The notes beneath the pieces are model-generated. The model searched no databases. It saw nothing but the letters and a program-made list of their open reading frames with translations, and was not told where the DNA came from. Shown here piece after piece: positions 5,241 through 6,314 of a stretch of 32,000 nucleotides of DNA. Position 1 is the stretch's first letter, and every line of letters starts with the position of its first letter. The translations under genes and the position numbers were made by a program. This DNA is from Promethearchaeota archaeon (GTDB lineage: Archaea > Asgardarchaeota > Lokiarchaeia > Sigyniarchaeales > SOKP01), in assembly GCA_030606485.1 (NCBI GenBank), contig JAUWGH010000001.1:180001-212000 (forward strand). Reading direction: 5' to 3'.

Positions 5241-6314
5241 TTAATCATATTTTTTTAATACATCATCTTTTATTTTTAGTAGACCTTTAAAATATCTCGA
5301 ATTAATTCTTGAATCTAATGTTTCCAAGAACTTTTTTAAATTATTTTTATTTGAATTTAATTTTGAAACAAGGTTTCTCCAAATTGAAAGATTATGAATT
5401 ACTCTTGATTTTCTGTCTTTAATAAAGGTATTTACAATTTGTTTAATATTTTTTCTATTACATACCTCACATTTGCATTTATTTGTTGTAGCGAAAAATT
5501 TCTCCCTCTTTTTAAAGTTATCTTTTAAAACACTTGCCCTTAGGCTGTATCCATTTTCATTAAAGATTGTTCCATAAGCTAGTGCTGATGTGACTGGGGT
5601 GGAACCATCAAAACTTGAAACTCCAAAATAAGCTAAAATCGGTATTAAATAATAGCTTGCAACTCCACTAAAATGCACTTTAGCATTTTCTTTTATTACA
5701 TCTCTTATTCCCAGCCCAATTTCAAATAATCTTCTTATTCCTTCCTTCTTATATTTTGGATATTTTAAGAATTCGCTAACGCCGATACAAAAATGATTAT
5801 GCCCATCATTTGAAGCTTTCTCAAACCATTCTCTTGCAGATTCATAATTATTTACTTGGATGGAGCAGTAAATCGGTATGGTTGAATTATTATTTTCTCT
5901 GGCCCAATTAGCATATTCTAAGTTTTTCTTATAATATTTTATTAATTTAGAGGAATCTAACAACCAGTATAAAAATTTATCATAATTGATTTTTTTGCTA
6001 TAAATTTTCTTAAGTCTATCTTCTTCCACCTTTAAGTCTAGATCCCCAGGTTGCACATTTTTTGACATAAATCCAATTGTGTTTTCATTGGCTAATTTCA
6101 TTTGTTGAGCTAAAATTACCTCTTTAGATCTTTTTTCTGGATTTTTAATATTCCACCAATTTCCCGCATGGATAAATCGTAATGATTGATGAATTTCTAG
6201 AGCCCTTATTTTTGATGGTGTCAAATTATAAGGAATTGTTATCGGAATTGTATCAGTTAAACCCTCGATAAATGTGCTATAAAATTCGTAAGTTCCTTTA
6301 TATTTCATTTCCAA
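5241..6314 (-). CDS. Divergent tRNA-guanine transglycosylase (TGT) fold protein
   Basis: SSFDGSTP (TGT nucleophile Asp motif), VHFSGV, SIQ and the Zn site CKCEVC...HNL, all in TGT order. The canonical DSGG motif is absent. Track start is TTG; ATG at 6308 is an alternative. Confidence 0.7.
   Translation of the reverse strand: MEMKYKGTYEFYSTFIEGLTDTIPITIPYNLTPSKIRALEIHQSLRFIHAGNWWNIKNPEKRSKEVILAQQMKLANENTIGFMSKNVQPGDLDLKVEEDRLKKIYSKKINYDKFLYWLLDSSKLIKYYKKNLEYANWARENNNSTIPIYCSIQVNNYESAREWFEKASNDGHNHFCIGVSEFLKYPKYKKEGIRRLFEIGLGIRDVIKENAKVHFSGVASYYLIPILAYFGVSSFDGSTPVTSALAYGTIFNENGYSLRASVLKDNFKKREKFFATTNKCKCEVCNRKNIKQIVNTFIKDRKSRVIHNLSIWRNLVSKLNSNKNNLKKFLETLDSRINSRYFKGLLKIKDDVLKKYD

What the first reader, a model, noticed from the sequence alone, without database searches (positions are those of the whole stretch)
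5241..6314. TGT-fold enzyme with intact nucleophile but rewired base-binding pocket
Seen by motif order: the nucleophile Asp (FDGS) and Zn site (CxCxxC...H) are kept. Where TGTs have DSGG there is HAGN, where they have the guanine-binding Asp there is apparently KN, and the QG motif reads QV. Known: these residues recognise guanine/7-deazaguanine in bacterial TGT, archaeosine TGT and DpdA. Inference: a base-exchange or N-glycosidase enzyme acting on a different base or nucleotide, possibly an undescribed RNA/DNA modification or nucleotide-catabolic activity.
Basis: partly seen in the sequence, partly recalled or inferred. Interest (0 to 1): 0.6.

Follow-up and report, generated by a model that had tools for sequence, protein, structure and literature searches.

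The report
Asgard TGT-fold enzyme, rebuilt base pocket
A Loki-type Asgard archaeon has, besides its normal tRNA base-swapping enzymes, a rare third relative that keeps the bond-breaking residue and zinc site. It has replaced both residues that normally handle guanine, so it probably cuts or swaps a different base by chemistry nobody has described or tested.

Summary
Window 5241-6314 (minus strand; likely start ATG at 6308, 355 aa) encodes a stand-alone TGT-fold protein. The AF2 model has pLDDT 93 and matches ArcTGT, bacterial TGT/QTRT1, DpdA, QTRT2 and Cap10 at Z 20-27.

Profile-profile alignment does not restore the canonical aspartates:
- The general acid/base Asp is His49.
- The guanine-reading Asp is Ser84 or Asn86, depending on the alignment.
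- The nucleophile Asp236, its His214 partner and the Zn site (C280, C282, C285, H307) are kept.
- These residues are invariant or nearly so in 59 distinct homologs.

The homologs form a small family found only in Asgard archaea. It is a clade apart from ArcTGT, ArcS and short DSGG-type TGTs (SH-aLRT 100). It is under purifying selection (dN/dS 0.15-0.22) and rare: 5 of 301 Asgard genomes sampled. The same genome has a canonical ArcTGT and ArcS.

Gene context gives no clear function:
- A form IV RuBisCO-like gene lies nearby in two clades.
- An unknown, translationally coupled partner sits among translation genes in the Helarchaeota-type clade.
- There is no virus or defence signal.

My best reading (about 0.45) is an active N-glycosyl-cleaving or exchanging enzyme on RNA or DNA with non-canonical base specificity. 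This is a new variant of a known kind, and the chemistry is untested.

The parts
5241..6308 (-). Coding sequence of the TGT-like protein: 355 aa from the ATG at 6308, stop at 5241-5243. The listed ORF begins two codons earlier, at the TTG at 6314.
   Evidence: dN/dS is 0.15-0.22 against five close homologs and one at 62% identity.
6153..6170 (-). H49-A-G-N-W-W, in place of the TGT motif D-S-G-G/A-Y/F-Q. His replaces the general acid/base Asp, and Trp53 sits on the base-stacking aromatic.
   Evidence: hhalign. H49, G51 and N52 are 59/59, W53 56/59 and W54 58/59. The role of that Asp is taken from PMC10164549.
6057..6074 (-). G81-F-M-S84-K-N86, the loop after strand beta4 where TGT, ArcTGT and DpdA carry the guanine-reading Asp. 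No acidic residue is conserved here.
   Evidence: The Asp aligns to N86 or S84. G81 and N86 are 59/59, M83 58/59 and S/T84 57/59.
5766..5783 (-). G178-V-S-E181-F-L, the beta6 loop that aligns with the Gly-rich loop reading the 7-substituent in TGTs. It carries a near-invariant Glu.
   Evidence: E181 is 53/58. The role of this loop in TGTs is taken from PMC10164549.
5664..5675 (-). H214-F-S-G, the beta7 motif. This His is shared with ArcTGT, DpdA and Cap10, where it is the partner of the nucleophile Asp.
   Evidence: H214, S216 and G217 are 59/59. The Cap10 D248/H226 pair is described in 10.1101/2025.04.06.647259.
5595..5615 (-). S234-F-D236-G-S-T-P, carrying the nucleophile Asp. The motif D-x-[ST]-T-P-[VL]-[QT]-x-A-[LF] is most like that of DpdA.
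   Evidence: HMM alignments to 7ui4 and 1iq8 put D236 on the known nucleophile (Asp249 of the 1iq8 chain). D236, G237 and S238 are 59/59.
5391..5477 (-). Zinc site: C280-x-C282-x-x-C285 ... H307-N308.
   Evidence: Aligned to the Zn motifs of DpdA, ArcTGT and bacterial TGT. Conserved in 58-59 of 59.
5976..6041 (-). Helical insertion of about 22 residues (92-113) found only in the window's own clade.
   Evidence: Alignment A1; helix 92-105 in the model.
6309..6400 (.). AT-rich spacer of 92 nt between the divergently transcribed TGT-like gene and the RuBisCO-like gene. It presumably holds both promoters.
   Evidence: No promoter was tested.
6401..7723 (+). Neighbour: form IV RuBisCO-like protein. 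Its best match is the MtnW enolase model, but below that model's cut-off. Orthologs lie beside or near the TGT-like gene in two clades of the family.
4069..5169 (+). In sister genera it lies directly upstream of the RuBisCO-like gene, with no TGT-like gene between them.

Best explanation
The gene encodes a stand-alone enzyme of the tRNA-guanine transglycosylase (TGT) superfamily. It belongs to a small family found only in Asgard archaea.

Shown:
- It has the TGT TIM barrel with the zinc subdomain.
- It keeps the residues for covalent catalysis at the anomeric carbon: Asp236 as nucleophile and its partner His214.
- The Asp that protonates the leaving base and deprotonates the incoming base is His49.
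- The Asp that reads the N1/N2 edge of guanine is gone (Ser84 or Asn86).
- The Gly-rich loop is replaced by G-V-S-E-F-L.
- All of these are fixed across the family, which evolves under purifying selection beside a canonical ArcTGT and ArcS.

Inferred:
- The protein still attacks C1' of a nucleotide through Asp236. His49 would serve as acid/base or stabilise an anionic leaving base. Asn86/Ser84 and Trp53 would read and stack a base that lacks guanine's donor pattern, for example a lactam base such as hypoxanthine, xanthine or uracil, or adenine.
- It then either hydrolyses the ribosyl-enzyme (glycosylase) or resolves it with a new base (exchange).
- The substrate is more likely a nucleic acid than a free nucleotide. 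The Zn subdomain is kept and most members are basic.
- RNA is somewhat more likely than DNA, given translation-related neighbours (Tsr3, tRNA genes, aminoacyl-tRNA synthetases).
For: - Fold: pLDDT 93.4. Z is 25.9 to ArcTGT, 23.5-26.9 to bacterial TGT/QTRT1, 21.6 to DpdA, 20.7 to QTRT2 and 20.3 to Cap10; unrelated TIM barrels score below 14.
- Residue equivalences.
- Invariance in 59 distinct sequences.
- dN/dS 0.15-0.22.
- Separate clade at SH-aLRT 100.
- Canonical ArcTGT (TDSGAFQ, ILDIP, CDCPVC) and ArcS (PC-x3-KPY-x2-S-x2-H) in the same genome.
- pI above 7.5 in 27 of 31 members.
- Cap10, the TGT relative adapted to a protein substrate, lost the Zn site and the basic patch. This family keeps the Zn site.
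- Translation-related neighbours: Tsr3, tRNA-Ile/tRNA-Ala and ValRS in clade B, ProRS in L041, and ArgRS 4.7 kb away in the window.
- No fused forms of 659 residues or more; longer members carry only loop insertions.
Against: - No activity, ligand or substrate has been tested.
- The three aspartates are described as invariant in TGT and DpdA, and mutating D95 or D256 abolishes DpdA activity. Losing two of the three could mean that glycosyl transfer is lost.
- Context is inconsistent between clades. The only tightly linked partner (F1) has no recognisable family and gave a poor model.
- The family is rare and patchy: 5 of 301 Asgard genomes, and one truncated copy. That is unusual for a core RNA-modification enzyme.
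- The neighbour themes were read after the fact.
- A residue-level structural superposition could not be obtained, so the choice between S84 and N86 is unresolved.
Confidence: 0.45

Rival explanations
1. It is still a guanine/7-deazaguanine transglycosylase (DpdA-like on DNA, or a second tRNA/rRNA site). It would read guanine with Asn/Ser/Glu181 and use His49 as acid/base.
For: - The best sequence matches are to DpdA: PDB profile search E 4.5e-8 to 7ui4; NCBIfam and PADLOC DpdA models.
- It shares the D-x-T-T-P-x-Q-x-A motif with DpdA.
- The genome's canonical ArcTGT and ArcS imply a preQ0 supply, though the biosynthetic genes were not searched.
- Other Asgard genomes carry short DpdA-like TGTs.
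Against: - All three Asp are reported invariant in TGT and DpdA, and D95A is inactive. Here two of them are replaced in 59/59 sequences.
- All DpdA model scores are far below cut-off (29 against 200).
- There are no hits in viral contigs or PHROGs, and no dpd-like or defence neighbours.
Confidence: 0.15
2. It is a small-molecule enzyme. It would cleave or transfer the ribosyl group of a free nucleoside or nucleotide (for example a 5'-deoxy or methylthio-nucleoside) and feed the pathway of the neighbouring RuBisCO-like protein.
For: The RuBisCO-like gene lies close in three different arrangements:
- back-to-back in clade A;
- directly downstream and co-oriented in L041;
- two genes away in L052.

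Its best model match is the MtnW enolase of methionine salvage.
Against: - The RuBisCO-like ortholog is found in most of the 301 Asgard genomes sampled, while the TGT-like gene is in 5.
- In Helarchaeota-type genomes the two genes lie on different contigs.
- In sister genera the RuBisCO-like gene follows an unrelated surface-protein module in the same way, so synteny here need not mean a shared function.
- The genome already has two PNP/MTAP-family phosphorylases and three IF-2B-family proteins.
- The retained Zn subdomain and basic pI suit a polyanion.
Confidence: 0.15
3. It holds a flipped-out or conjugated base in the old TGT pocket and does non-glycosidic chemistry or hand-over, as ArcS or Cap10 do. 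The co-transcribed F1 protein would be the partner or substrate in the Helarchaeota-type clade.
For: - ArcS and Cap10 show that the fold can be re-used this way.
- F1 overlaps the gene's 3' end in nine of nine clade B loci with enough flank.
- F1 ends in a conserved YYPPxExPIF tail.
- Cap10 is of similar size and matches at Z 20.3.
Against: - F1 was not found in the window's genome.
- The ArcS motif is absent from all 59 members.
- Cap10 keeps the two Asp that this family lost, and lacks the Zn site that this family keeps.
- There is no CBASS or QueC-like neighbour.
Confidence: 0.1
4. It is a non-catalytic paralog that binds RNA or pairs with ArcTGT, as QTRT2 pairs with QTRT1.
For: QTRT2 matches at Z 20.7. 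Two of the three catalytic or recognition Asp are lost.
Against: - The nucleophile and every barrel-top loop are invariant, which fits a working active site better than a scaffold.
- The gene is absent from most genomes that have ArcTGT.
Confidence: 0.05

Closest known systems
Archaeosine tRNA-guanine transglycosylase (ArcTGT/TgtA; P. horikoshii, PDB 1IQ8)
   Same: It is the best structural match: Z 25.9, 304 residues aligned, rmsd 3.4. It shares the TIM barrel, Zn site, H-x-x-G motif and nucleophile Asp.
   Different: - Identity is 15%.
- The DSG Asp is His49, and the guanine-reading Asp is Ser84/Asn86.
- There are no C1/C2/PUA domains.
- It scores below the TIGR00432 cut-off.
- It is a separate clade, and the genome has its own ArcTGT.
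DpdA, DNA-guanine/preQ0 transglycosylase (S. Montevideo, PDB 7UI4)
   Same: It is the best sequence match: profile E 4.5e-8. It shares the H-L-x-G and D-x-T-T-P-x-Q-x-A motifs and the Zn site, and matches at Z 21.6.
   Different: - D95, D130 and D256 are invariant in DpdA and essential where tested. Here only the D256 equivalent is kept.
- NF041059 scores 29 bits against a cut-off of 200.
- There is no DpdB/DpdC or defence context, and nothing in viral contigs.
Bacterial TGT and eukaryotic QTRT1 (Z. mobilis TGT; human QTRT1, PDB 7NQ4)
   Same: Z 23.5-26.9 over about 300 residues. Both are single-domain proteins of similar size (stand-alone in bacteria; QTRT1 pairs with QTRT2).
   Different: Identity is 12-15%. 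HMMER aligns only the Zn region. The DSGG Asp and the guanine-reading Asp of these enzymes have no acidic counterpart here (inferred through the ArcTGT profile alignment; bacterial TGT/QTRT1 was not aligned residue by residue).
Cap10 of type IV CBASS (PDB 9NTN)
   Same: It is a short TGT-fold protein with a remodelled use of the pocket. It has a D/H catalytic pair like D236/H214, and matches at Z 20.3.
   Different: Cap10 keeps D73, S74 and D122, lacks the Zn site and the basic patch, and works on a CD-NTase N-terminus in a CBASS operon. This family shows the reverse pattern and has no such operon.
ArcS (archaeosine synthase) and QTRT2
   Same: Both are TGT-fold paralogs that have lost base exchange. 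Some family members give weak ArcS model hits. QTRT2 matches at Z 20.7.
   Different: The ArcS signature motif is absent from 59/59 members and present in the genome's own ArcS. QTRT2 is described as non-catalytic, whereas here the nucleophile is invariant.

Membership tests
TGT superfamily (fold level) | (beta/alpha)8 barrel with an inserted Zn subdomain, C-x-C-x-x-C...H | tested here: met
   AF2 pLDDT 93.4. Z 20-27 to five solved TGT-fold families, with unrelated barrels below 14. Zn ligands aligned and conserved.
TGT superfamily (Pfam PF01702) | Score at or above the Pfam gathering threshold (26.3 bits) | tested here: not met
   21.3 bits, residues 196-319 only. Three homologs carry a precomputed PF01702 hit.
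ArcTGT / bacterial TGT / DpdA (guanine transglycosylases) | General acid/base Asp in the D-S-G motif (Ph/Sm D95, Zm D102) | tested here: not met
   Aligned to His49 in both hhalign runs. His in 59/59.
ArcTGT / bacterial TGT / DpdA (guanine transglycosylases) | Asp that reads the guanine N1/N2 edge (Ph/Sm D130, Zm D156) | tested here: not met
   Aligned to Asn86 or Ser84. No conserved acidic residue at 82-88.
ArcTGT / bacterial TGT / DpdA (guanine transglycosylases) | Nucleophile Asp (Ph D249, Sm D256, Zm D280) | tested here: met
   D236 is aligned by HMMER and hhalign and is 59/59.
ArcTGT (TgtA) | C-terminal C1/C2/PUA tRNA-binding domains, and the TIGR00432 equivalog score | tested here: not met
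   Members are 320-438 aa with no extra domains. No longer forms were found. Scores are far below the cut-off.
DpdA | NF041059 equivalog score, and a dpd or phage modification gene context | tested here: not met
   29.3 bits against 200. No viral, PHROG or PADLOC context.
ArcS | PC-x3-KPY-x2-S-x2-H motif | tested here: not met
   0 of 59 members. Present in the genome's own ArcS.
Cap10 (type IV CBASS) | No Zn site; keeps D73/S74/D122; operon with a CD-NTase and Cap9 | tested here: not met
   Here the Zn site is kept and the two Asp are lost. No such neighbours.
QTRT2-type non-catalytic subunit | Heterodimer with a catalytic TGT; no catalysis of its own | not testable with these tools
   Only fold similarity is available, Z 20.7.

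The most novel reading that the evidence does not exclude
This would be a new functional class of the TGT fold: an enzyme that removes or exchanges a base other than guanine in RNA or DNA. One example is a lactam base lacking the 2-amino group, such as hypoxanthine, xanthine or uracil. It would use an Asp nucleophile with a His/Asn pocket. That would define either a new nucleic-acid modification or a direct base-exchange repair route in Asgard archaea.
Probability: 0.3. Interest if true: 0.85.

Novelty: new variant of a known kind. Interest (0 to 1): 0.6.

Why it matters
Every characterised base-exchanging member of the TGT fold (bacterial TGT, QTRT1, ArcTGT, DpdA) and Cap10 reads guanine or 7-deazaguanine with the same two aspartates. 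This family keeps the covalent-catalysis apparatus and the zinc domain but has fixed His and Asn/Ser at those two positions.

It is therefore a clean candidate for base-exchange or base-excision chemistry on another base. It occurs in the archaeal lineage closest to eukaryotes, whose RNA and DNA modifications are almost unexplored.

The protein is small, models confidently and has obvious mutants, so the question is directly testable at the bench.

Tried and rejected
- **Restoring the Asp residues by alignment.** Global and local hhalign against ArcTGT and short-TGT profiles both keep His49. Neither places an acidic residue at the guanine-reading site.
- **Membership in ArcTGT or ArcS.** Rejected by the tree, the model cut-offs and the ArcS motif.
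- **Virus or defence origin.** There were no relatives in viral contigs and no PHROG hits. PADLOC gave only sub-threshold DpdA hits, and none for the neighbours.
- **MTA-nucleosidase 'pathway hole'.** The genome has two PNP_UDP_1 and three IF-2B family genes.
- **Uracil-repair 'pathway hole'.** Pfam UDG was not found in five genomes of the family, with or without the gene. EndoV is in all five. Nothing discriminates.
- **Partner F1.**
  - It has no Pfam, NCBIfam, PHROG or PADLOC hit.
  - The atlas gave scores of 0.81 or less.
  - The AF2 model has pLDDT 59 and was too poor to search.
  - F1 is unrelated to the 366-aa neighbour in the window.
  - It was not found in the window's genome.
- **Domain fusions.** No relatives of 659-2000 residues were found, which is weak evidence. 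The 400-440 aa members only have loop insertions.
- **tRNA gene set.** I looked for A34 tRNAs that might need hypoxanthine insertion. ARAGORN finds only 15 tRNAs, or 38 with introns allowed. The A34 calls rest on odd intron positions and a poor fold. Inconclusive.
- **Literature.** No paper in the library links a TGT to Lokiarchaeota or describes this family.
- **Structure detail.** No tool returned residue-level structural superpositions or model coordinates.
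Full report
**The gene.** The finding's coordinates hold one ORF on the minus strand, 5241-6314, 357 codons from a TTG. Close homologs begin MKYKG, so the real start is almost certainly the ATG at 6306-6308, giving 355 aa. The window is AT-rich (30% G+C; the gene 28%). It lies in contig 10 of a 3.75-Mb genome rated 100% complete, from a Loki-type Asgard archaeon (Promethearchaeota). The gene stands alone. It is convergent with a 366-aa gene at 4069-5169 and divergent, across 92 nt, from a RuBisCO-like gene at 6401-7723.

**Sequence and fold.**
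- Sequence models see it only faintly. Pfam TGT scores 21.3 bits (threshold 26.3) over residues 196-319. NCBIfam DpdA scores 29 bits (cut-off 200) and ArcS 18 bits. PADLOC DpdA scores 30 bits.
- An AlphaFold2 model built on 31 homologs is confident, with mean pLDDT 93.4 and pTM 0.92.
- Foldseek and VIA-align match it over nearly its full length to the TGT fold. Z is 26.9 to human QTRT1, 25.9 to P. horikoshii ArcTGT and about 25 to Z. mobilis TGT. About 300 residues align at about 3 A and 12-15% identity.
- A search that does not depend on Foldseek ranks five TGT-fold families first: ArcTGT 25.9, bacterial TGT 23.5, DpdA 21.6, QTRT2 20.7 and Cap10 20.3. Unrelated TIM barrels follow at Z 13.9 or less.

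**The motifs.**
- HMMER alignments of the family profile to DpdA (7ui4, E 4.5e-8) and ArcTGT (1iq8, E 3.9e-6) put D236 on the known nucleophile (Asp249 of the 1iq8 chain). They put C280/C282/C285/H307 on the zinc ligands.
- Profile-profile alignment to Asgard ArcTGTs covers the whole protein. The global run gives prob 97.6. The local run, with a larger family alignment, gives prob 99.1 and E 1e-18.
- Both runs place H49-A/S-G-N-W-W on ArcTGT's D-S-G-A-Y-Q. His49 therefore replaces the general acid/base Asp, and Trp53 sits on the stacking aromatic.
- The guanine-reading Asp aligns with Asn86 in one run and Ser84 in the other. No acidic residue is conserved in that loop.
- The Gly-rich beta6 loop reads G-V-S-E-F-L.
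- In 59 distinct family members, H49, G51, N52, G81, N86, W117, H214, S216, G217, S234, D236, G237, S238, C282, C285 and H307 are invariant. W54, R62, M83, C280 and R304 are 58/59, and E181 is 53/58.
- The DpdA structure paper states that the three active-site aspartates are invariant in TGT and DpdA, and that D95A and D256A abolish exchange.
The 'QV' Gln is not conserved in the family. The lost Asp maps to S84 or N86, not specifically to 'KN'.

**The family.**
- A search of 5.8 billion clustered proteins gave 30 hits, all from Asgard-type sources: Promethearchaeota, Helarchaeota, Hodarchaeota, Sigynarchaeum, and two bins with other labels.
- An exhaustive HMMER scan of 1.84 billion representatives gave only 35 clusters. 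Those with the HSGNWW and DGSTP motifs belong to the family. The weakest hits are short TGTs with a normal DSGG motif.
- In a sample of 301 Asgard genomes, true orthologs occur in five: all four of the window's genus and one genome of the same class. One large genome holds only a 95-codon remnant.
- A tree shows four clades. With ArcTGT, ArcS and short DSGG TGTs added, the family is one split at SH-aLRT 100.
- dN/dS against five close homologs and one at 62% identity is 0.15-0.22.
- The same genome has a canonical ArcTGT (TDSGAFQ, ILDIP, CDCPVC) and an ArcS with its signature motif. This protein is therefore a third paralog and does not replace either of them.
- No fused forms exist in the length ranges searched. 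Longer members carry only loop insertions.

**Context.**
- *Clade A (the window's).* The order is surface protein, 366-aa protein, TGT-like gene (opposite strand), RuBisCO-like gene. In three sister genera the 366-aa gene is followed directly by the RuBisCO-like gene after about 100 nt. The TGT-like gene is therefore an insertion or deletion at that spot.
- *Clade D.* The RuBisCO-like ortholog (62% identical to the window's) is immediately downstream and co-oriented in L041, and two genes away in L052. In L052 an AlkD-type DNA glycosylase gene is the immediate neighbour.
- *Clade B (Helarchaeota type, nine loci).* The gene is followed by an overlapping, co-oriented gene for an unknown 190-250 aa protein (F1). 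Upstream and divergent lie Tsr3, a small unknown gene and an HhH-GPD glycosylase. Downstream lie tRNA-Ile or tRNA-Ala genes and ValRS.
- *Clade C.* The gene sits between an SCP2-like gene and a giant protein with no Pfam hit.
- The RuBisCO-like protein is form IV. Its best match is the MtnW enolase model, below cut-off. It is found in most sampled Asgard genomes. In Helarchaeota-type genomes it lies on a different contig from the TGT-like gene.
- No relatives occur in viral contigs. Neither the family nor its neighbours match phage or defence models, apart from weak DpdA hits.

**Interpretation.** What is shown:
- a TGT-fold protein with the nucleophile, its His partner and the zinc domain intact;
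- two guanine-handling aspartates replaced;
- all of this fixed under purifying selection, in a separate Asgard-only clade.

The rest is inference.
- The invariant residues sit in the loops that follow the predicted barrel strands. That pattern argues for a working active site rather than a scaffold.
- Cap10 is the TGT relative adapted to a protein substrate. It kept both aspartates but lost the zinc site and the basic surface. This family did the reverse, and 27 of 31 members are basic. That pattern favours a nucleic-acid substrate.
- From general knowledge, an Asp/Asn/His set with a stacking aromatic is what family-1 uracil-DNA glycosylases use for a lactam base. Asp-to-Asn changes also switch guanine-binding proteins toward xanthine. 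A base lacking guanine's 2-amino donor is therefore a reasonable guess, but no more than that.
- Translation-related neighbours tilt slightly toward RNA. Glycosylase neighbours tilt toward DNA. All of these themes were read after the fact.

**Rivals.**
- A still-canonical guanine/7-deazaguanine exchanger is hard to square with the loss of residues that are essential in DpdA.
- A small-molecule enzyme tied to the RuBisCO-like protein rests on the one repeated neighbour. It is weakened in three ways: that gene is near-universal, its synteny with unrelated genes is equally tight, and the genome already has PNP/MTAP-type and IF-2B-type enzymes.
- An ArcS- or Cap10-like role with F1 is possible in clade B. 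However, F1 was not found in this genome.
- A dead subunit is the least likely reading.

**Verdict.** The family is undescribed in the literature I could search. It is a new variant of a known kind, and its function is open and directly testable.

Earlier notes of this scan describe other short DpdA-like TGTs in Asgard genomes. Those keep DSG-type motifs, and none of them concerns this family.

Noticed in passing
window 2-5169 and 6401-7723; L045, L046, L047: The module surface protein, then 366-aa protein, then RuBisCO-like gene is syntenic across genera of this family. The surface-protein/366-aa pair is duplicated in some genomes. The TGT-like gene is present between the last two genes only in the window's genus and its relatives.
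   Followed up: partly
window 6401-7723: The RuBisCO-like protein is form IV. Its best match is the MtnW enolase model at 349 bits, below the cut-off of 409. It reads VKPCTG and HMDFAG where, from memory, true RuBisCO has KPKLG and His-Arg. Orthologs occur in most of the 301 Asgard genomes sampled. Its substrate is unknown.
   Followed up: partly
L056 10054-10731; also L036, L037, L038, L042, L054, L055, L059, L061: F1 is a conserved unknown protein of about 190-250 aa, translationally coupled to the TGT-like gene in the Helarchaeota-type clade. It has an acidic stretch and an invariant C-terminal tail YYPPxExPIF. No family or confident fold was found.
   Followed up: partly
L044 9995-10276: Only the first 95 or so codons of a TGT-like gene remain in a 3.7-Mb scaffold, after which the frame diverges. 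This is a truncated copy, so the gene is dispensable in that lineage.
   Followed up: partly
L008, L009, L026 (genomes G084, G238, G256): Other Asgard genomes carry short (313-381 aa) stand-alone TGT-like proteins with a normal DSGG motif. They are probably the DpdA-like genes that earlier notes of this scan describe.
   Followed up: no
L052 7675-8373; L056 6184-6894: DNA glycosylase genes lie near the TGT-like gene in two clades. An AlkD-type gene (PF08713) is adjacent in L052, and an HhH-GPD gene is three genes upstream in clade B. This may be chance.
   Followed up: no
genomes G000, G040, G225, G204, G144: No Pfam UDG-superfamily gene was found in five near-complete genomes of this Loki-type family, while endonuclease V is present in all five.
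   Followed up: no
L042 (DATKTP010000204.1) and L039 (WJJB01000165.1): The public labels 'Candidatus Deferrimicrobium' and 'Bathyarchaeota' sit on contigs that carry Asgard-type genes. The first belongs to a genome that the genome tool places in the same class as the window's.
   Followed up: no
L036 8888-9757: An arrestin-like protein (Arrestin_N plus Arrestin_C) is encoded directly upstream of the TGT-like gene in a Helarchaeota genome.
   Followed up: no
own genome, e.g. C10:355583-355686: ARAGORN finds only 15 tRNA genes, or 38 with introns allowed. It calls three A34 anticodons that rest on unusual intron positions and weak stems. The tRNA set of this genome needs a dedicated intron-aware search.
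   Followed up: partly
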